From Escherichia coli (GTDB lineage: Bacteria; Pseudomonadota; Gammaproteobacteria; Enterobacterales; Enterobacteriaceae): a stretch of DNA of 64,000 nt. This document shows, piece after piece, positions 18,001 through 27,000 of this stretch. Made by a program: the position numbers. The stretch lies in assembly GCF_016026235.1 (NCBI RefSeq), contig NZ_CP065613.1. One strand, given 5' to 3'. Within the stretch, counting starts at the first letter, position 1, and each line of letters opens with the position of its first letter.

Positions 18001-21000
18001 ACTCCGTTAACTCAATGCTGCGGGTACTGCGAGTGAACAACACCACATCCAGCCCCGTTTCCATACGCTTAATGGTGTAGCTAATGGCGGAAGTGGTTAA
18101 ACCCAACTCGTCTGCGGCTTTACTGAAGCTGCCAAATCGCGCAGCGGTAGTAAATGCCAACAGATTCTCTTCGGTAAAAACTGAGTTCATTAAACCATTC
18201 TCGCCATTATCTAATATGAATTTCTCCAGCCATGACTGTAGAGGTATCGATTAAAGATAGATAATCATTTTTGAATAACTTTTAATACCCGTCGCGTTTA
18301 GTCGTCGCTTCGCTTAATTTTTGTCCGCCATATTCTGAAACTATCCCCACGCAGTTACCCGCCAGAAAACCCAGTAACGTCACCGTCCAGTTCATCCCGC
18401 AGGCAAAAAACAGCGTCATGCCGAGAAAGCCACCGGGAATGAATGACAGTAACCAGAAACGTCCTTGCCAGACCACTACCGCTGAGAAAGGCACGGTAGT
18501 AATCACGCTCGCCCAGAACCCGGAAATCCCACTTACAGAGGCCAGCCAGCCGGAAGCCAGCGCGGCAAAAAACGCCCACACCATCCCGGAATAGTTAACC
18601 GCCAGACTTCTGATAAACCCTGATTTACCGCCGCCTGCGGCATAAAAACTGCAAAAGGCGACGAAGCCAATGGTTCCTAATAATTCCCATCCCTGAGAAA
18701 GCCCAACATGTGAAGATACTAACTGCCAAAGCCCTGCACAAACACCGACGGTTATACCCGTTGCAGTGAGTCCGTTCATCTTGTTCCCCCTCTGGTTAGA
18801 CATGGACGAAAGCTGCGCTTATATGTGCAGACTATAGAGAAATAAAACCTGATTGAGTGAAAGGGTATCGGGTCAAAGAAACAAATATTGCACTACCGCA
18901 CACTGCGAAAAGATTGTTGAACATCATTCAACAAAAAGGCGAAATACGGCGAATTAAATTTAAGCGGGTTCTTTTATCAGATTAACGTTGCTATTCTCAA
19001 TTCATCGAAAACAGCCACAAAAATCAGGGGAATGTTAATGAGTATAAAAAATCTACCTGCCGACTATTTATTGGCTGCACAACAGGGCGATATCGATAAA
19101 GTAAAAACCTGCTTTGCGCTGGGTGTCGATATTAATACCTGCGATCGCCAGGGGAAAACGGCAATTACGCTGGCAAGTTTATATCAGCAATATGCTTGTG
19201 TTCAGGCATTAATTGATGCCGGAGCGGATATTAATAAACAAGACCAGACCAGTTTAAATCCTTTTTTAATCAGTTGCCTGAACGGTGATTTAACCCTGTT
19301 ACGAATTATTTTACCGGCTAAACCCGATCTTAATTGTGTAACCCGTTTTGGCGGTGTCGGCCTGACGCCTGCCTGTGAAAAAGGCCATTTAAGTATTGTA
19401 AAAGAGCTTTTGGCGCACACCGATATTAACGTTAACCAGACCAACCATGTTGGCTGGACGCCGCTGCTTGAAGCGATTGTGCTTAATGATGGTGGTATTA
19501 AACAGCAGGCGATTGTGCAGTTATTGCTGGAACACGGTGCCAGCCCGCATCTGACCGATAAATATGGCAAAACGCCGCTGGAACTGGCGCGGGAACGGGG
19601 CTTTGAAGAGATTGCGCAGTTACTGATTGCCGCAGGTGCATAAACCGGGAGGCTTGCTATCAACACACCAGAAAAACGGTGTGTGTGGGCGCTAACTGCG
19701 GATGCGGATTTTCTGGCGCAGCGGGGGCAAGGACAGGTTGAACAGGTCTTTGCCAGAGCGGTAAATATCGCACTCCCGGCTCGCCAGCAGTTGCTGACGC
19801 TGCTTTGTGAAGAGTACGACAATGCGCCAAACAGTTGTCGGTTGGCACTCACTCACTTTGATGATCTGTTCCGGCATGGTGATAAGGTTCAGTTTGACGA
19901 TCAAGGTATTACGGTTGGTCAACATCTTCATATAGAGATGAGTCGTTGTCGGCGTTGGCTGTCCCCAACCTTGCAAATGACCGCTGTGAATTTTCACCTT
20001 ATCGCCTGGCAACAGTGGCACGACATTATTCATCAGCACCTGGGGGAAAATGAAACCCTGTTTAATTATCGCGGCGATAATCCGTTTTATCAGGCGTTAA
20101 ATAAAGAATTACATATTAAACGACGGGCAGTTATTCAGACAGTAAACGATAAGCAAAATATCGCCTCAGCGGTCGCCAGTATGATGGGGTTAGGGATTGG
20201 CCTTACGCCATCAGCCGACGATTATTTAACAGGTCTGGCGCTTATTTTATTTATTCCCGGGCATCCGGCGGAAAAATACAAAGAGGAATTTTATCTCGGT
20301 CTGCAACGCGGCAGAAATAATACCACATTATTAAGTGCCATAACGCTGGAAGCCGCATTACAACAACGCTGCCGGGAAAATATTCATCGTTTTATTCACA
20401 ACATTATTTATGACATTCCTGGGAACGCAACTCAGGCAATAGAAAAAATTAAACATATTGGCTCCAGTTCCGGCTGCGACATGCTGTATGGCATGGCCGA
20501 TGGTTGTGCGCTGAGCCAAACCTACGGAGGGAATTATGTCAGTTAAAATAGTCATTAAACCGAATACCTATTTTGATTCTGTCTCGCTGATGTCTATCTC
20601 CACGCGTGCAAATAAACTCGATGGCGTCGAGCAGGCATTTGTGGCGATGGCGACCGAAATGAACAAAGGCGTGCTGAAAAATTTAGGGCTGCTGACGCCG
20701 GAGCTTGAGCAGGCGAAAAACGGCGACCTGATGATTGTCATTAACGGCAAAGCGGGCGCGGACAACGAGCAGTTGCTGGTAGAGATTGAAGAACTGTTCA
20801 ACAGCAAAGCGCAAAGTGGCTCGCACGAGGCGCGTTACGCCACCCTTGCCAGCGCCAAAAAGCATATCCCGGAAAGTAACCTAGCGGTGATTTCGGTCAA
20901 CGGTCTGTTTGCCGCTCGCGAAGCACGTCAGGCGCTGCAAAATGACCTCAACGTGATGCTGTTTTCCGATAACGTCTCGGTTGAAGATGAACTGGCGCTC

Positions 21001-24000: not shown

Positions 24001-27000
24001 CGGGCTGGATTTACGCCGTGCGGAGATTGCCCACGAGCGCGAAGGGCTGCCCTTAACGCCGCTGGCGAACTGTGTGGCAGATACGCAGGGCGGCATCGGC
24101 TATCTGATCCAACAGGCGCTGAATAACCGGCTGGCGCGTCACGGCGAGAAGAAAGCCGTCACCGTGGTGACTCAGGTGGAAGTGGATAAAAACGATCCAG
24201 GTTTTGCCCATCCCACCAAGCCCATTGGTGCATTCTTCAGTGAAAGCCAGCGTGACGAATTACAAAAGGCAAACCCTGACTGGCGTTTTGTTGAAGATGC
24301 CGGACGGGGCTATCGCCGCGTGGTCGCCTCGCCGGAACCGAAACGTATTGTCGAAGCACCTGCCATTAAAGCGCTGATCCAACAAGGTTTTGTCGTAATT
24401 GGCGCGGGCGGCGGTGGAATTCCGGTAGTGCGTACTGAAGCGGGGGATTACCAAAGCGTGGACGCGGTTATCGACAAAGATCTCTCTACCGCGCTGCTGG
24501 CCCGTGAAATTCACGCCGACATTCTGGTGATCACCACCGGCGTCGAAAAAGTCTGTATCCACTTTGGTAAACCCGAGCAGCAGGCGCTGGATCGGGTGGA
24601 TATTGCCACCATGACTCGCTATATGCAGGAAGGACATTTCCCGCCCGGCAGCATGTTGCCAAAAATCATCGCCAGCCTGACGTTCCTGGAACAGGGCGGT
24701 AAAGAAGTGATTATCACCACGCCGGAATGCCTGCCCGCGGCGCTGCGTGGCGAAACGGGCACCCATATTATTAAAACGTAAGGACGTAAGATGAAAGAAA
24801 GCAATAGCCGCCGTGAATTTCTGAGCCAGAGCGGTAAGATGGTCACCGCCGCCGCGCTGTTTGGTACGTCTGTGCCGCTCGCCCATGCGGCAGTCTCTGG
24901 CACAACCCACTGCGACGCGAATAACACCATGAAAATCACTGACCCGCATTACTATCTCGACAACGTGCTGCTGGAAACTGGATTTGACTACGAAAATGGC
25001 GTGGCGGTGCAGACCCGCACGGCGCGCCAGACCGTGGAGATTCAGGACGGCAAAATTGTCGCCCTGCGCGAGAACAAGCAGCATCCGGACGCCACGCTGC
25101 CGCACTATGACGCTGGCGGTAAGCTGATGCTGCCCACCACCCGCGACATGCATATTCATCTCGATAAAACCTTTTACGGCGGGCCGTGGCGCTCGCTTAA
25201 TCGCCCGGCAGGCACCACCATCCAGGATATGATTAAGCTCGAGCAGAAAATGCTGCCGGAGCTGCAACCCTACACCCAGGAACGGGCGGAAAAACTGATC
25301 GATCTATTGCAGTCGAAAGGCACCACCATTGCCCGCAGTCACTGCAATATCGAACCGGTTTCCGGCCTGAAAAATCTGCAAAATTTGCAGGCGGTGCTGG
25401 CGCGACGTCAGGCGGGCTTCGAGTGTGAAATTGTCGCCTTCCCGCAGCACGGTTTGCTGCTGTCGAAATCGGAACCCTTAATGCGTGAAGCAATGCAGGC
25501 GGGCGCGCATTACGTCGGCGGTCTGGACCCGACCAGTGTTGATGGCGCGATGGAAAAATCCCTCGACACCATGTTTCAGATTGCGCTGGACTACGACAAA
25601 GGCGTCGATATTCACCTGCATGAAACCACTCCGGCGGGCGTGGCGGCCATCAATTATATGGTTGAAACGGTAGAGAAAACGCCGCAGCTGAAGGGCAAGC
25701 TGACCATCAGCCACGCCTTCGCGCTGGCAACGCTCAACGAGCAGCAGGTAGATGAACTGGCGCATCGCATGGCGGCGCAACAAATTTCTATCGCCTCGAC
25801 GGTGCCGATTGGCACGCTGCATATGCCGCTCAAACAGTTGCACGACAAAGGCGTAAAAGTGATGACCGGCACCGACAGCGTTATCGACCACTGGTCGCCT
25901 TACGGCCTGGGCGACATGCTGGAAAAAGCCAATCTGTACGCGCAGCTCTATATTCGCCCTAACGAACAGAATTTGTCCCGCTCGCTGTTTTTAGCCACTG
26001 GCGATGTATTGCCGCTGAATGAAAAAGGCGAGCGCGTATGGCCAAAAGCGCAGGATGACGCCAGCTTTGTGCTGGTGGACGCCTCCTGTTCCGCCGAGGC
26101 GGTGGCGCGTATCTCGCCGAGAACGGCAACGTTCCATAAAGGGCAACTGGTGTGGGGGAGTGTGGCAGGTTGATGCGCATTTGAAACGCCTGCAACGGTG
26201 AATAGTAAGAGATTTAAGCCCCAGGGAGTGGGGCGGGAATGGTTTGCTAATGAATGATCCTGAACTTTATAATCTCCCGGCATAATTTCAAGGGGATTAT
26301 TTGAGAGAAATACACAAAAGTGAGTTTTAACAAAGGTATTTATCAGGCCATAAATGTGACCTGCTTCGGATAAAAAAGATTCAGTATCGAAAAACCAATG
26401 ATACTCTTGCTGATGGTTACCAACAGTAATTAAGATGTGATTTGTTTTTCCGTAATCGCAAAAATATTGCCATGACCATAAAAGAAAAATTCTCACAAAA
26501 ATATCCCCATGCTTCCTTTTGTACTTTTGGCGATTCAGCAGCGTTGGCCGATCACCTCGCAACGTTGATTGCGACTGGTGTTAAAACAGCTTCCTGTGGT
26601 TCGCTGGCGGGATGTATTGAAGACAACGCATTTCCGATGATTGGTGAGTATAAGATTGTAGAAAATAGCCGTGGTGAGCCTGTATGTGTTATCAGAGTGA
26701 TTGGCCTGCATTTACTGCGCTTTTCTGATGTCACCGCGGAGCTTGCCCGTAAGGAAGGTGAAGGTGACCTCAGTCTTGAATATTGGCGTAATGAACACCG
26801 TCGTTTTTTCCAGGCAGAAGGAAGCTATTCACCAGAAATGGACGTTATCTTTGAAGAATATGCCCTTATTGACGTTGTGTAGATAACTATTTATCTACAC
26901 GAAATAAGCTCACAAACATAAAATATCGCTAATTTTGTTTATTTTGCTGTTTTTTACGTGATGAATGTCACACTTATTATTGCTGCCCGTTTTGTCCATA

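What the first reader, a model, noticed from the sequence alone, without database searches (positions are those of the whole stretch)
19683..26173. yahEFG-yahI-yahJ: an uncharacterised carbamoyl-transfer-like catabolic cluster
The five genes encode a DUF2877 protein, an FdrA-like CoA-ligase-fold protein, a DUF1116 protein (all three translationally coupled), a carbamate kinase and a Tat-exported amidohydrolase. The same DUF2877/FdrA/DUF1116/carbamate-kinase set recurs, as I recall, in the allantoin-utilisation cluster (ylbF, fdrA, ylbE, ybcF), where it has been proposed to act in oxamate carbamoyl transfer. That suggests this locus catabolises an unknown ureido or carbamoyl compound with ATP recovered from carbamoyl phosphate. 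The substrate is not known to me.
Basis: partly seen in the sequence, partly recalled or inferred. Interest (0 to 1): 0.55.

Follow-up and report, generated by a model that had tools for sequence, protein, structure and literature searches.

The report
Second carbamoyl-phosphate-yielding ureide operon (yah)

Summary
All five ORFs lie at the stated coordinates. yahE/F/G are translationally coupled, and YahJ carries a twin-arginine signal. YahE/F/G/I are homologous to AllH/AllF/AllG/AllK at 25/39/45/38% identity. AllFGH was shown in 2024 to be oxamic transcarbamylase, so that function is demonstrated, not merely proposed.

Yah is not a recent copy of All. YahG is at least 75% identical from E. 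coli to Brevibacillus, then drops to 49% or less for every other family member.

Comparison of about 95 loci widens the unit to: yahB (AllS-like LysR regulator) | operator dyad | yahD (ankyrin), yahE, yahF, yahG, [517-aa permease], yahI, yahJ. Escherichia has lost the permease, and a REP array ("yahH") sits in its place. All genes remain under purifying selection (dN/dS 0.01–0.19).

A deaminase always accompanies the core: Tat-exported, CodA/AtzC-like YahJ in Proteobacteria, and a guanine-deaminase-like CDA enzyme in Firmicutes. Sister clusters pair the same enzyme with cyanuric acid hydrolase or a biuret-hydrolase-like gene. atzC on pADP-1 sits beside a carbamate kinase gene and an AllG-family remnant.

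Best model: deamination yields an acyl-urea, YahDEFG phosphorolyses it to carbamoyl phosphate, and YahI makes ATP. The substrate is unresolved. This is a new variant of a known kind.

The parts
17258..18190 (-). yahB, a LysR-type regulator and paralogue of AllS/PunR
   Evidence: Best NCBIfam hits are AllS (267 bits, below the cut-off of 372) and PunR. An orthologue flanks the operon in nearly all proteobacterial loci. dN/dS is 0.089.
18282..18803 (-). yahC, a small DUF1097 membrane protein found only in lineages that lack the 517-aa permease
   Evidence: RefSeq annotates it as DUF1097. It is present in 17 loci, all without the permease, and absent from the 61 loci that have the permease. It shows no similarity to the permease. 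dN/dS is 0.068.
18913..18934 (.). Dyad ATTGTTGAA-N5-TTCAACAA, the probable YahB operator
   Evidence: It is unique in the 64-kb window. It was found at 76-77 nt upstream of the -10-like element, with conserved half-sites and variable spacer, in 54 of 81 yahD upstream regions from Escherichia to Aeromonas.
18989..18997 (+). TGCTATTCT, an extended -10-like element of the yahD operon promoter
   Evidence: The 9-mer is conserved in 57 of 82 upstream regions. It was not detected by the generic promoter scan. It is inferred, not mapped.
19032..19643 (+). yahD, a cytoplasmic ankyrin-repeat protein and a Yah-specific partner of the enzyme
   Evidence: It gives ankyrin hits. It is the first gene of the operon in all proteobacterial loci and in 3 of the 5 Firmicute loci. 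Bosea and Psychrobacillus carry an ankyrin+TPR protein instead. It is absent from the All cluster and the sister clusters. dN/dS is 0.078.
19683..20546 (+). yahE, an AllH/DUF2877-family subunit
   Evidence: Pfam AllH 3.5e-28. It is 25% identical to AllH. The invariant motifs GxGxGLTPxxDDxLxG and GSSSGxD are present. It is the fastest-evolving gene of the cluster (dN/dS 0.19). It is missing from 25 of 81 loci and fused to YahF in one.
20536..22083 (+). yahF, an AllF/FdrA-family subunit with a succinyl-CoA-synthetase-alpha-like fold
   Evidence: It is 39% identical to AllF. It hits NCBIfam FdrA above the cut-off, Pfam CoA_binding + Ligase_CoA and PDB 3dmy FdrA at 3e-83.
22083..23501 (+). yahG, an AllG/DUF1116-family subunit
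   Evidence: It is 45% identical to AllG. Pfam AllG 1.2e-87. Orthologues are at least 75% identical across phyla. PDB 3clq is a close homologue. dN/dS is 0.031.
23514..23786 (.). REP/BIME tandem array (annotated as 'yahH' in K-12) at the position where other taxa encode a 517-aa permease
   Evidence: TRF reports period 93, 2.9 copies, 95% match. It explains the median of 27 places per genome. 61 loci carry the permease gene here. No permease vestige remains in the window.
23831..24781 (+). yahI, carbamate kinase
   Evidence: NCBIfam NF009007 at 649 bits against a cut-off of 266. PDB carbamate kinases 1e19 at 9e-83 and 1b7b at 2e-73. It is 38% identical to AllK. dN/dS is 0.013.
24791..26173 (+). 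yahJ, a Tat-exported metal-dependent hydrolase of the CodA/AtzC cluster (predicted deaminase)
   Evidence: The SRREFL signal is conserved in 76 of 77 sequences aligned; the exception is AtzC. H121, H123, K126, Q219, H275, H277, H308 and D362 are invariant, and E278 is present in 75 of 77. Closest PDB entries are AtzC-like 6nbo at 4e-44, AtzC at 3e-30 and CodA at 1e-16.

Best explanation
The locus is the Escherichia version of an ancient, horizontally mobile operon: yahB | yahD-E-F-G-(permease)-I-J. It extracts nitrogen and one ATP from a urea-containing compound that is not oxalurate.

**Proposed steps**
1. *Inferred.* YahJ is exported folded through Tat. In the periplasm it hydrolytically deaminates an amino-substituted N-heterocycle, or a planar N-carbamoyl/N-acyl-amidine, of the type C(NH2)=N-C(=O). 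This releases NH3 and creates a -CO-NH-CO- (imide/acyl-urea) unit.
2. *Inferred.* The product is imported. In most taxa the importer is a dedicated 517-aa permease that databases label AzgA/xanthine-permease-like. Escherichia has lost it, so another carrier must serve, possibly YahC.
3. *Inferred from homology to AllFGH, whose activity is shown.* YahF-YahG, assisted by YahE and the Yah-specific ankyrin protein YahD, transfers the terminal carbamoyl group to phosphate. This gives carbamoyl phosphate plus an amide or amine.
4. *Inferred from family membership.* YahI converts carbamoyl phosphate + ADP to ATP + NH3 + CO2.
5. *Inferred.* YahB activates the operon from the conserved dyad upstream of yahD in response to the substrate or a product.

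The logic matches the arginine- and agmatine-deiminase pathways (deiminase, transcarbamylase, carbamate kinase, transporter), but it is built from unrelated proteins.

The substrate class is most likely a purine-, pyrimidine- or triazine-derived ureide of the biuret/oxalurate/malonurate type. Its identity is unknown.
For: **Homology to a characterised enzyme**
- YahE/F/G/I match AllH/F/G/K, with Pfam and NCBIfam membership.
- Purified AllFGH interconverts oxalurate + Pi and carbamoyl phosphate + oxamate (PMC11326118).
- AllK is a catabolic carbamate kinase (PMC9843812).

**A distinct orthogroup**
- YahG is 75-99% identical in Enterobacterales, Aeromonas, Janthinobacterium, Pasteurella, Bosea, Brevibacillus, Paenibacillus and Psychrobacillus.
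- In a 50%-clustered library of 1.84 billion proteins, only one full-length representative is found, at 76%. The next is at 49% or less.
- A K-12 ΔallFGH strain with yah intact makes no oxamate.

**Conserved gene set**
- The same genes recur in different orders in about 95 loci.

**The deaminase step is supported by non-orthologous displacement**
- Proteobacteria carry Tat-exported YahJ.
- All five Firmicute clusters instead carry a 150-aa CDA-fold enzyme closest to B. subtilis guanine deaminase, at 1.5e-31.
- YahJ keeps all catalytic residues of the CodA cluster.
- Substrates of that cluster share a C-N-C-O linkage (PMC12828455). Their products therefore carry the imide unit present in oxalurate.

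**YahJ and the permease form a separable pair**
- In Shinella they occur together without DEFG-I.

**Nucleobase/purine flavour**
- Sources name the permease 'xanthine permease' or 'AGZA family'.
- The Firmicute clusters carry an NCS1 transporter closest to allantoin permease.
- The regulators are PucR or AllS/PunR-like.

**The same enzyme module is wired to other ureide-generating hydrolases**
- A bona fide cyanuric acid hydrolase, at 580 bits against a cut-off of 360.
- A BiuH-like hydrolase plus an allophanate-hydrolase C-domain protein.
- atzC next to arcC and an AllG-family remnant.
- allFGHK next to biuH/trtA/atzF in nitrifier MAGs (PMC12625717).

**The locus is kept by selection**
- dN/dS is 0.013-0.19 for all eight genes.
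- yahF-G is present in 5039 of 5426 complete E. coli genomes.
- A ΔyahJ ExPEC strain had a competitive index of 0.70 in mice (PMC7549933).
Against: - No activity has been measured for any Yah protein. No paper in the library addresses their function, and they are listed as y-ome genes.
- No Yah-type cluster encodes a ring-opening enzyme, yet known CodA/AtzC-cluster products are cyclic. A cyclic product could not yield free carbamoyl phosphate without an extra step.
- Aeromonas and Janthinobacterium lack any deaminase in the cluster.
- Escherichia lacks the cognate permease.
- YahE, whose AllH counterpart was reported as needed for full activity, is absent from 25 loci.
- YahI's best structural relative is the Pyrococcus enzyme, which works in the synthetic direction.
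- The permease family assignment rests on database names only. Pfam, NCBIfam, PDB and hhalign all gave nothing.
Confidence: 0.55

Rival explanations
1. YahEFG is simply a second oxamate carbamoyltransferase, an isozyme of AllFGH. It would act on oxalurate that reaches the cell by a different route, for example from parabanate or oxidised purines, with YahJ producing oxalurate or a precursor in the periplasm.
For: All three subunits and the kinase are homologous. The regulator YahB is most similar to AllS. RefSeq already names some copies 'oxamate carbamoyltransferase subunit AllH/AllG family protein'. The PucR regulators and allantoin-permease-like NCS1 in Firmicutes point to purine catabolites.
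Against: Identity to the All proteins is only 25-45%, whereas Yah orthologues stay at least 75% identical across phyla, so the two groups are under separate constraint. Both clusters coexist in K-12. ΔallFGH makes no oxamate although yah is intact; this could also reflect lack of induction. The ankyrin partner, deaminase and dedicated permease have no counterpart in the allantoin route.
Confidence: 0.15
2. The system is mainly protective. A periplasmic deaminase inactivates a toxic amino-heterocycle, such as a base analogue or antimetabolite, before it enters the cell. The cytoplasmic enzymes then dispose of the product.
For: Periplasmic, Tat-exported location of YahJ is conserved in 76 of 77 sequences. 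The YahJ+permease pair also occurs without the carbamoyltransferase. Yah-type clusters ride on many conjugative plasmids of E. coli and Klebsiella. ΔyahJ has a mild in vivo fitness cost.
Against: The tight, universal linkage of E-F-G to a carbamate kinase is the signature of an energy- and nitrogen-yielding route. Firmicutes use a cytoplasmic deaminase together with an importer, which would admit the toxin. No efflux component is present.
Confidence: 0.1
3. In Escherichia the cluster is a crippled remnant. Loss of the permease and invasion by REP elements have left a cryptic operon without a physiological role.
For: The 517-aa permease gene found in 61 other loci is missing and replaced by a REP array. 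YahE has diverged to 26-63% identity from other YahE proteins. No phenotype or expression data were found. The genes are listed as a dense uncharacterised cluster.
Against: All ORFs are intact. dN/dS is 0.013-0.19 within Escherichia and against E. albertii. yahF-G is present in 93% of complete E. coli genomes. The operator and -10-like element are retained. The permease-less form with yahC is shared by Kluyvera, Klebsiella, Raoultella and Pseudocitrobacter, and the yahF-J segment has recently been exchanged between genera. ΔyahJ has an in vivo defect.
Confidence: 0.1
4. The enzymes work in the synthetic direction or on a different chemistry. Either YahI supplies carbamoyl phosphate and YahDEFG carbamoylates an acceptor to build a ureide, or YahF is an acyl-CoA synthetase as it is still annotated.
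For: The AllFGH assay was run in the carbamoylating direction. YahI is closest to the Pyrococcus carbamate-kinase-like carbamoyl-phosphate synthetase. YahF has CoA_binding/Ligase_CoA domains and is named acyl-CoA synthetase.
Against: The context consists of importers, deaminases and catabolic-type regulators, with no biosynthetic partners. AllF carries the same domains but is part of a transcarbamylase that needs no CoA. The sister clusters sit next to degradative hydrolases.
Confidence: 0.05

Closest known systems
AllF-AllG-AllH oxamic transcarbamylase with AllK carbamate kinase (E. coli anaerobic allantoin pathway; PMC11326118, PMC9843812)
   Same: It has the same three protein families plus a carbamate kinase in one operon, an AllS-type LysR regulator nearby, and the same predicted chemistry (ureide + Pi -> carbamoyl phosphate -> ATP). 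The AllH-type subunit appears to be the least essential in both. ΔallH keeps 7% of activity, and yahE is absent from 25 loci.
   Different: - Identity is 25-45%, and Yah forms a separate tight orthogroup.
- Gene order is H-F-G-K, not F-G-H-K.
- YahG has a roughly 57-residue N-terminal extension.
- Yah adds an ankyrin protein, a Tat-exported deaminase and a dedicated permease.
- It is not embedded among allantoin genes, and it does not replace AllFGH in vivo.
Arginine deiminase and agmatine deiminase pathways (deiminase + catabolic ornithine/putrescine transcarbamylase + carbamate kinase + transporter); from established knowledge
   Same: The four-part logic is identical: an amidine is deiminated to a ureide, the carbamoyl group is passed to phosphate, and carbamate kinase makes ATP. 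A transporter is encoded alongside.
   Different: The transcarbamylase is not of the ATCase/OTCase fold. It is an SCS-alpha-like + DUF1116 + DUF2877 assembly. The deaminase is an amidohydrolase-superfamily or CDA-fold enzyme, not a guanidino-modifying enzyme, and it is periplasmic in Proteobacteria. The substrate is probably an acyl-urea, not an alkyl-urea.
AtzC (N-isopropylammelide isopropylaminohydrolase) and the cyanuric acid/biuret lower pathway (AtzD, BiuH, allophanate hydrolase)
   Same: YahJ's nearest solved relatives are AtzC-like enzymes. atzC on pADP-1-type plasmids lies directly downstream of a carbamate kinase gene and an AllG-family remnant. Sister AllFGH-type clusters carry AtzD, or BiuH-like plus AH-C-domain genes. 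A natural AtzC relative (66% identical) sits next to AtzD/TrzD and nucleobase permeases.
   Different: YahJ is only 29% identical to AtzC. It has HxxE like CodA where AtzC has HxxD, and it is Tat-exported. Yah clusters contain no ring-opening amidohydrolase. The AllG remnant by atzC is equidistant from all subfamilies and is not specifically Yah.
CodBA (cytosine permease + cytosine deaminase)
   Same: A nucleobase-type permease is paired with a CodA-cluster mononuclear-metal deaminase. The YahJ+permease pair even occurs alone in Shinella.
   Different: YahJ scores far below the cytosine deaminase cut-offs, at 104 bits against 438. It acts outside the cytoplasmic membrane, so deamination precedes uptake. 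The permease belongs to an undescribed family, not NCS1, in Proteobacteria.

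Membership tests
AllFGH-type (FdrA/DUF1116/DUF2877) carbamoyltransferase family | Three separate proteins carrying the AllF-type (CoA_binding + Ligase_CoA), AllG (PF06545) and AllH (PF11392) domains, encoded side by side | tested here: met
   Pfam scans. NCBIfam FdrA at 493 bits against a cut-off of 433. Adjacent, overlapping genes.
AllFGH-type (FdrA/DUF1116/DUF2877) carbamoyltransferase family | A carbamate kinase gene in the same operon | tested here: met
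   yahI lies downstream on the same strand. The kinase gene is present in all full-length Yah-type loci and in both sister clusters.
Oxamate carbamoyltransferase proper (AllFGH orthologues, EC 2.1.3.5) | Orthology to AllF/AllG/AllH (same subfamily) | tested here: not met
   Identity is 39/45/25%. YahG forms its own cluster at 75% identity or more, with the next relatives at 49% or less. Both sets coexist in K-12.
Oxamate carbamoyltransferase proper (AllFGH orthologues, EC 2.1.3.5) | Location within the allantoin regulon (next to allECD, allantoin-responsive control) | tested here: not met
   The neighbours are yahB, yahC, yahD, yahJ and yahK. No allantoin genes lie in any Yah-type locus, apart from one weak AllC-like hit.
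Oxamate carbamoyltransferase proper (AllFGH orthologues, EC 2.1.3.5) | Catalysis of oxalurate + Pi <-> oxamate + carbamoyl phosphate | not testable with these tools
   There is only indirect evidence. ΔallFGH K-12 with yah intact forms no oxamate (PMC11326118).
Carbamate kinase | Full-length match to curated carbamate kinase models and to solved carbamate kinases | tested here: met
   NF009007 at 649 bits against a cut-off of 266. The arcC equivalog TIGR00746 scores 347 bits, just under its cut-off of 358. PDB 1e19 at 9e-83 and 1b7b at 2e-73. Enzyme activity is not testable here.
CodA/AtzC cluster of subtype III amidohydrolases (hydrolytic deaminases) | Metal ligands HxH, His (strand 5), His (strand 6), Asp (strand 8), plus the substrate-binding Gln and the HxxE proton shuttle | tested here: met
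   H121, H123, Q219, H275, H308 and D362 are invariant, and E278 is present in 75 of 77 aligned sequences. The residues align with AtzC and 6nbo.
Cytosine deaminase (CodA) or AtzC orthologue | Score above the curated family cut-off, or close identity | tested here: not met
   The cytosine deaminase models score 104, 83 and 71 bits against cut-offs of 438, 483 and 403. Identity to AtzC is 29%.
Tat-exported proteins | N-terminal S/T-R-R-x-F-L-K-type motif followed by a hydrophobic stretch and an AxA cleavage site | tested here: met
   The N-terminus reads MKESNSRREFLSQSGKMVTAAALFGTSVPLAHA. The motif is conserved in about 70 orthologues plus Shinella and Pasteurella. YahJ is listed as a predicted Tat substrate in PMC7549933. 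Export itself was not tested here.
ATCase/OTCase-fold transcarbamylases (as used in the deiminase pathways) | Homology to the aspartate/ornithine transcarbamylase fold | tested here: not met

The most novel reading that the evidence does not exclude
The FdrA/DUF1116/DUF2877 enzymes may be a general 'acyl-urea phosphorylase' module. Bacteria would plug it behind different feeder hydrolases: AtzC/CodA-like deaminases, cyanuric acid hydrolase, biuret-hydrolase-like enzymes.

The Yah form, with its ankyrin partner, periplasmic deaminase and undescribed permease family, would then be a previously unrecognised substrate-level-phosphorylation pathway. Its substrate would be an amidine or amino-heterocycle, such as a guanylurea/biuret-, ammelide- or oxidised-purine-type compound. 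The pathway is near-universal in E. coli and is spread on conjugative plasmids.

A corollary is that the herbicide gene atzC was recruited from such an operon.
Probability: 0.35. Interest if true: 0.72.

Novelty: new variant of a known kind. Interest (0 to 1): 0.5.

Why it matters
Eight adjacent genes, found in 93% of complete E. coli genomes, are still listed as one of the densest uncharacterised clusters of the best-studied bacterium.

This work places them as a distinct, cross-phylum orthogroup of the transcarbamylase type discovered only in 2024. It defines the true parts list: regulator, operator, ankyrin partner, a permease lost in Escherichia, and a periplasmic deaminase.

The question "what does yah do?" thereby becomes a short, concrete screen: a small panel of amino-heterocycles and amidines for YahJ, and of acyl-ureas for YahDEFG.

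If the model holds, three things follow:
- It adds a new ATP-yielding nitrogen-scavenging route for gut and urinary Enterobacterales.
- It explains why such clusters travel on conjugative plasmids.
- It gives a natural origin for the atzC region of atrazine-degradation plasmids.

Tried and rejected
- **Permease fold.** The AlphaFold model of the 517-aa permease reached only pLDDT 51, so no fold search was run. Pfam, NCBIfam, PDB sequence search and hhalign against three NCS2 permeases all gave nothing. Only database names suggest an AzgA/xanthine-permease relationship.
- **YahC as a remnant or relative of the lost permease.** No similarity was found.
- **The AllG-like remnant beside atzC as specifically Yah-type.** Rejected. 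It is 57-60% identical to every subfamily.
- **Generic promoter/terminator scan.** The counts were no better than in shuffled sequence. The conserved -10-like element and dyad were found only by cross-species comparison.
- **Literature.** No paper treats the yah function. Nothing links atzC, or ring-opening amidohydrolases, with carbamate kinase. The pADP-1 sequence paper and the enterobacterial purine review are not held.
- **Window from a non-coli Escherichia.** This was the first impression, because the best identity was 96.8%. It was rejected: the flanks are 98.1% identical to E. coli over 24.5 kb, and one E. coli strain matches yahF-G at 99.9%. The locus simply carries a rare allele.
- **The 410-aa Bosea protein as a missing ring-opening enzyme.** Rejected. 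It is an ankyrin+TPR protein.

Full report
**1. What is in the sequence**

They are yahE 19683-20546 (GTG start), yahF 20536-22083, yahG 22083-23501, yahI 23831-24781 and yahJ 24791-26173.

The gene junctions fit translational coupling:
- The yahF ATG lies 11 nt inside yahE, behind GGAGGG.
- yahF and yahG share the sequence TGATG, behind GGGGAGGAAG.
- yahI and yahJ are separated by 9 nt.

yahG and yahI are separated by 329 bp. This spacer holds a tandem array of 93-bp REP/BIME units (2.9 copies, 95% match) at 23514-23786. The array explains why the whole-locus search found a median of 27 matching places per E. coli genome. In K-12 the same stretch is annotated as 'yahH', and the y-ome survey describes yahH as filled with REP sites (PMC11551758).

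The window is E. coli. It is 98.1% identical over 24.5 kb to strain 23CRST011, and that strain's RefSeq annotation names the same genes.

**2.

| Protein | Family evidence |
|---|---|
| YahE | Pfam AllH (formerly DUF2877), 3.5e-28 |
| YahF | CoA_binding + Ligase_CoA; NCBIfam FdrA model above its cut-off |
| YahG | Pfam AllG (formerly DUF1116), 1.2e-87 |
| YahI | Carbamate kinase subfamily model, 649 bits vs cut-off 266; solved carbamate kinases at 9e-83 |
| YahJ | Amidohydro_1/3 |

I compared each protein directly with the K-12 allantoin-cluster proteins, fetched:

| Pair | Identity | E-value |
|---|---|---|
| YahE-AllH | 25% | 4e-10 |
| YahF-AllF | 39% | 8e-104 |
| YahG-AllG | 45% | 8e-118 |
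| YahI-AllK | 38% | 4e-57 |

- Purified AllF-AllG-AllH catalyses oxamate + carbamoyl phosphate <-> oxalurate + Pi.
- Deleting any of the three genes abolishes or nearly abolishes oxamate formation (PMC11326118).
- AllK is the catabolic carbamate kinase (PMC9843812).

Neither paper mentions the yah genes. I found no paper that addresses their function.

**3. Yah is a separate orthogroup, not a recent copy**

A search of 5.8 billion proteins with YahG returned orthologues from a wide range of taxa:
- 85-99% identical: Enterobacterales.
- 88%: Aeromonas.
- 79%: Janthinobacterium.
- 76-77%: Brevibacillus, Paenibacillus and Psychrobacillus.

In a library clustered at 50% identity, the whole group collapses to one full-length representative at 76%. 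Every other DUF1116 protein is at 49% or less.

The Yah proteins are therefore held under their own tight constraint across phyla, while being only 25-45% identical to the All proteins. Both sets coexist in K-12. A K-12 ΔallFGH strain, which still has yah, makes no oxamate. This argues for a different substrate, although lack of induction cannot be excluded.

**4. The real unit, from about 95 loci**

I fetched the 80 best species-representative loci, out of 470 that encode a relative. I added loci from Brevibacillus (two), Paenibacillus, Psychrobacillus, an uncultured Firmicute, Janthinobacterium, Aeromonas, Pasteurella, Bosea and Shinella. I classified their ORFs against reference proteins.

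The majority architecture in Proteobacteria is:

yahB (divergent) | yahD - yahE - yahF - yahG - 517-aa membrane protein - yahI - yahJ

*Regulator.*
- YahB is a LysR regulator. Its best curated matches are AllS and PunR, both below cut-off.
- The Janthinobacterium and Aeromonas regulators behave the same way.
- Firmicutes and Bosea use a PucR-family regulator instead.

*Ankyrin partner.*
- Bosea and Psychrobacillus carry a 387-410-aa ankyrin+TPR protein instead. The two are 55% identical to each other.
- No ankyrin gene accompanies allFGHK or the sister clusters.

*Operator.*
- Upstream of yahD lies a dyad, ATTGTTGAA-N5-TTCAACAA, at window 18913-18934. It is unique in the 64 kb.
- It sits 76-77 nt upstream of a conserved TGCTATTCT in 54 of 81 loci, from Escherichia to Aeromonas.
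- The half-sites are conserved and the spacers are free. This is the expected signature of the YahB operator.

*pdeL.* It is adjacent only in Escherichia and is not part of the module.

**5. What Escherichia has lost and gained**

The 517-aa polytopic membrane protein lies between yahG and yahI in 61 loci. It is 77-82% identical between Janthinobacterium and Enterobacterales.

It has no Pfam, NCBIfam or PDB match. Its AlphaFold model was too poor to use (pLDDT 51). A profile comparison with NCS2 permeases was negative. Public sources label it 'xanthine permease', 'AGZA family xanthine/uracil permease-like' or 'adenine/guanine/hypoxanthine permease'. That is a lead, not a test.

Escherichia, Kluyvera, Klebsiella/Raoultella, Pseudocitrobacter and Citrobacter amalonaticus lack this gene. 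They have only a short yahG-yahI spacer, which in Escherichia is filled with REP units, and no vestige of the permease remains. Exactly these lineages carry yahC (DUF1097) between yahB and yahD. The two genes never co-occur in the 83 loci, and they are not homologous.

Despite the loss, all eight genes are under strong purifying selection. dN/dS against another E. coli allele is:

| Gene | yahI | yahG | yahJ | yahF | yahC | yahD | yahB | yahE |
|---|---|---|---|---|---|---|---|---|
| dN/dS | 0.013 | 0.031 | 0.037 | 0.062 | 0.068 | 0.078 | 0.089 | 0.187 |

Values against E. albertii are similar. In addition, yahF-G is present in 5039 of 5426 complete E. coli genomes.

**6. The third subunit is the soft one**

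- YahE is the fastest-evolving gene of the cluster.
- It is absent from 25 of 81 loci. In the Enterobacter, Leclercia, Lelliottia and Silvania group, only about 106 bp separate yahD from yahF.
- It is fused to YahF in Zophobihabitans.
- This agrees with the published data for AllH. ΔallH retains 7% of oxamate formation, and allFG alone restores 7%.
- The family shares the invariant motifs GxGxGLTPxxDDxLxG and GSSSGxD.
- YahF resembles the succinyl-CoA synthetase alpha subunit and the solved FdrA (3dmy). A close YahG homologue has been solved as an 'uncharacterized protein' (3clq, 2e-194).

By analogy, forming an acyl phosphate (carbamoyl phosphate) from an activated acyl donor plus phosphate resembles the first half-reaction of succinyl-CoA synthetase. 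This is my inference. I did not test whether a phosphohistidine is conserved.

**7. The deaminase step**

*YahJ.*
- Its N-terminus reads MKESNSRREFLSQSGKMVTAAALFGTSVPLAHA. The twin-arginine motif is conserved in about 70 enterobacterial orthologues and in those of Pasteurella (49% identity) and Shinella (44%).
- YahJ is listed among predicted Tat substrates with unknown function. A ΔyahJ ExPEC strain was mildly outcompeted in mice (competitive index 0.70, p = 0.022; PMC7549933).
- Its nearest solved relatives are an AtzC-like protein (6nbo, 4e-44), AtzC (3e-30) and cytosine deaminase (about 1e-16).
- All catalytic residues of that cluster are invariant: H121, H123, Q219, H275, H308 and D362. 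E278 gives the HxxE motif of CodA, where AtzC has HxxD.
- YahJ scores far below the curated cytosine deaminase cut-offs and is 29% identical to AtzC. It is a member of the cluster but not an orthologue of either enzyme.

*The chemistry of the cluster.* A recent study showed that substrates of CodA-cluster enzymes share a C-N-C-O linkage, that is C(NHR)=N-C(=O) (PMC12828455). Hydrolysis of such a group leaves -CO-NH-CO-. This is the imide or acyl-urea unit that defines oxalurate.

*Non-orthologous displacement.* All five Firmicute clusters lack YahJ. They carry, next to the kinase gene, a 150-aa CDA-fold deaminase closest to B. subtilis guanine deaminase (1.5e-31). They also carry an NCS1 transporter closest to allantoin permease (434 bits, below the cut-off). 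Two unrelated deaminases at the same place in the same operon are good evidence that deamination belongs to the pathway.

*A separable feeder module.* In Shinella the YahJ orthologue and the 517-aa permease sit together without the D-E-F-G-I genes. These two therefore form a separable module in which deamination outside the membrane precedes uptake.

*Exceptions.* Aeromonas and Janthinobacterium have the core without any deaminase.

**8. Sister clusters and the atzC fossil**

The same E-F-G + kinase module, with G proteins 46-48% identical to YahG, occurs in two other settings.
- On enterobacterial plasmids it lies next to a bona fide cyanuric acid hydrolase (AtzD equivalog, 580 bits against a cut-off of 360) and an NCS2 permease.
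- On an IncK plasmid it lies next to a biuret-hydrolase-like cysteine hydrolase (278 bits, below the cut-off of 370), a 129-aa protein matching the C-terminal domain of allophanate hydrolase, and a cytosine-type permease. The APEC tkt1 island carries the same leading genes: an isochorismatase-type hydrolase, genes annotated yahE, yahF and yahG, and a carbamate kinase (PMC3349570).

Nitrifier genomes place allFGHK beside biuH, trtA and atzF (PMC12625717).

On a pADP-1-sized IncP plasmid and on a Paenarthrobacter atrazine plasmid, atzC is immediately preceded by a carbamate kinase gene (47% identical to YahI) and the 3' remnant of an AllG-family gene. The remnant has the same truncation point in both plasmids. 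It is equidistant from all G subfamilies, so it marks the family, not Yah specifically.

A natural AtzC relative (66% identical) lies between nucleobase permeases, another amidohydrolase and an AtzD/TrzD enzyme.

Together these contexts suggest that the family's general substrates are compounds with a terminal carbamoyl group on an amide-type nitrogen: oxalurate, and plausibly biuret, carboxybiuret, allophanate or malonurate. They also suggest that different feeder hydrolases deliver them. No paper in the library links atzC or ring-opening amidohydrolases with carbamate kinase.

**9. Most likely mechanism, and its weak point**

I propose the following sequence:
1. Periplasmic YahJ deaminates an amino-heterocycle or a planar N-carbamoyl/N-acyl-amidine.
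2. The product is taken up.
3. YahF-YahG, with YahE and YahD, transfers its terminal carbamoyl group to phosphate.
4. YahI makes ATP, NH3 and CO2.
5. YahB controls the operon from the conserved dyad.

Only the homologies, the gene linkage, the export signal and the catalytic residues are shown. Every activity is inferred.

The unresolved problem is that no Yah-type cluster encodes a ring-opening enzyme. A cyclic imide could not give free carbamoyl phosphate. There are three ways out:
- The YahJ substrate is acyclic or pseudo-cyclic. Guanylurea giving biuret is the simplest example that fits the chemistry.
- The product opens spontaneously, as 5-azauracil does (from my own knowledge).
- The ring is opened by an enzyme encoded elsewhere.

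The purine-flavoured regulators and permeases make an oxidised-purine or related ureide attractive. I cannot name the compound.

**10. Rivals**

| Rival | Weight | Main argument against |
|---|---|---|
| Second oxalurate enzyme | 0.15 | Separate conservation of the two orthogroups; failure to replace AllFGH |
| Protective, detoxifying role | 0.10 | Universal kinase linkage; importer plus cytoplasmic deaminase in Firmicutes |
| Decaying remnant in Escherichia | 0.10 | dN/dS values; prevalence; retained operator |
| Synthetic or CoA-ligase role | 0.05 | Catabolic context; AllFGH precedent |

**11. Novelty and verdict**

The genes are known and annotated, and the enzyme kind has been known since 2024. 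RefSeq has begun to label some copies 'AllH/AllG family'.

What is new here:
- Yah is a distinct, cross-phylum, plasmid-mobile orthogroup.
- Its parts list is corrected: ankyrin partner, AllS-like regulator and operator, a permease lost in Escherichia, and a dispensable AllH-like subunit.
- The deaminase step is supported by non-orthologous displacement.
- The module is linked to cyanurate/biuret-type hydrolases and to the atzC region.

I rate it a new variant of a known kind, of moderate interest (0.5). Its main value is that it turns one of the densest uncharacterised clusters of E. coli into a short, well-defined set of experiments.

Noticed in passing
L086 6001-8488 (pADP-1-sized IncP plasmid NZ_KP289281) and L087 6001-8782 (Paenarthrobacter pADNL1): The atrazine gene atzC is directly preceded by a carbamate kinase gene and the 3' remnant of an AllG/DUF1116 gene. 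The remnant has the same truncation point in both plasmids. In L086 the region is bounded by IS91-like and IS5 elements. It looks like a fossil of an AllFGH + kinase + amidohydrolase operon from which atzC was recruited.
   Followed up: partly
window 20448-26165 versus L009/L010 (Pseudocitrobacter): yahF-yahJ of the window is 96.5-97.3% identical in DNA to a Pseudocitrobacter MAG (L009), but yahB-yahE is only 74% identical. The breakpoint is near 20448, at the end of yahE. Among 5426 E. coli genomes only one (FDAARGOS_943) matches the window's yahF-G at 99.9%. All others are at 96.3% or less. This suggests a recent inter-genus exchange of the 3' half of the operon.
   Followed up: partly
L035, L037, L038, L041-L054, L056-L060, L062, L063 (Enterobacter, Leclercia, Lelliottia, Silvania and relatives); L064: The AllH-like gene yahE is missing from 25 of 81 loci. 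In L048, for example, yahD and yahF are about 106 bp apart. In Zophobihabitans (L064) yahE is fused to yahF as an 817-aa ORF. The third 'subunit' therefore seems dispensable or replaceable.
   Followed up: partly
L088 (E. coli plasmid p1540-4) and 64 plasmid records: A complete Yah-type cluster of the Enterobacter kind is carried on many conjugative IncF-type and other plasmids of E. coli and Klebsiella from people and poultry. Its YahG is 90% identical to the window's, and it carries the 517-aa permease. Some strains therefore hold both a chromosomal permease-less copy and a plasmid-borne permease-containing copy.
   Followed up: no
window 26442-26882 and about 27133-31000: An ASCH-domain gene and a four-gene sugar/AI-2-type ABC transporter lie between yahJ and yahK in this strain, and in strain 23CRST011. 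They are absent from K-12, where yahK follows yahJ directly. This is an accessory insertion unrelated to the yah operon.
   Followed up: partly
window 23520-23834 (+); L001 12845-13117; K-12 yahH: ORFs called inside the REP/BIME array ('yahH', 'hypothetical protein') are translations of repeat units, not genes.
   Followed up: yes
L089 3734-4837 and L090 5810-6478, 11385-11774: Two further AllFGH-type + carbamate kinase clusters occur on enterobacterial plasmids. One carries a bona fide cyanuric acid hydrolase and an NCS2 permease. The other carries a BiuH-like hydrolase, a stand-alone allophanate-hydrolase C-domain protein and a cytosine-type permease. Neither appears to have been described.
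   Followed up: partly
PMC11326118 Table 3 (read): [quoted passage not shown] The chromosomal paralogue YahF, 39% identical to AllF, is a candidate stand-in. This is speculation and was not tested.
   Followed up: no
L098 7026-11545 (Shinella): A YahJ orthologue with a Tat signal and the 517-aa permease sit beside an ornithine-cyclodeaminase/mu-crystallin-family gene, without any carbamoyltransferase or kinase. The YahJ product can evidently be used by another route.
   Followed up: no
PDB 3clq: A solved structure deposited as 'uncharacterized protein' is a very close YahG-type homologue (2e-194 over residues 58-463). It could be used at once for docking or complex modelling.
   Followed up: no
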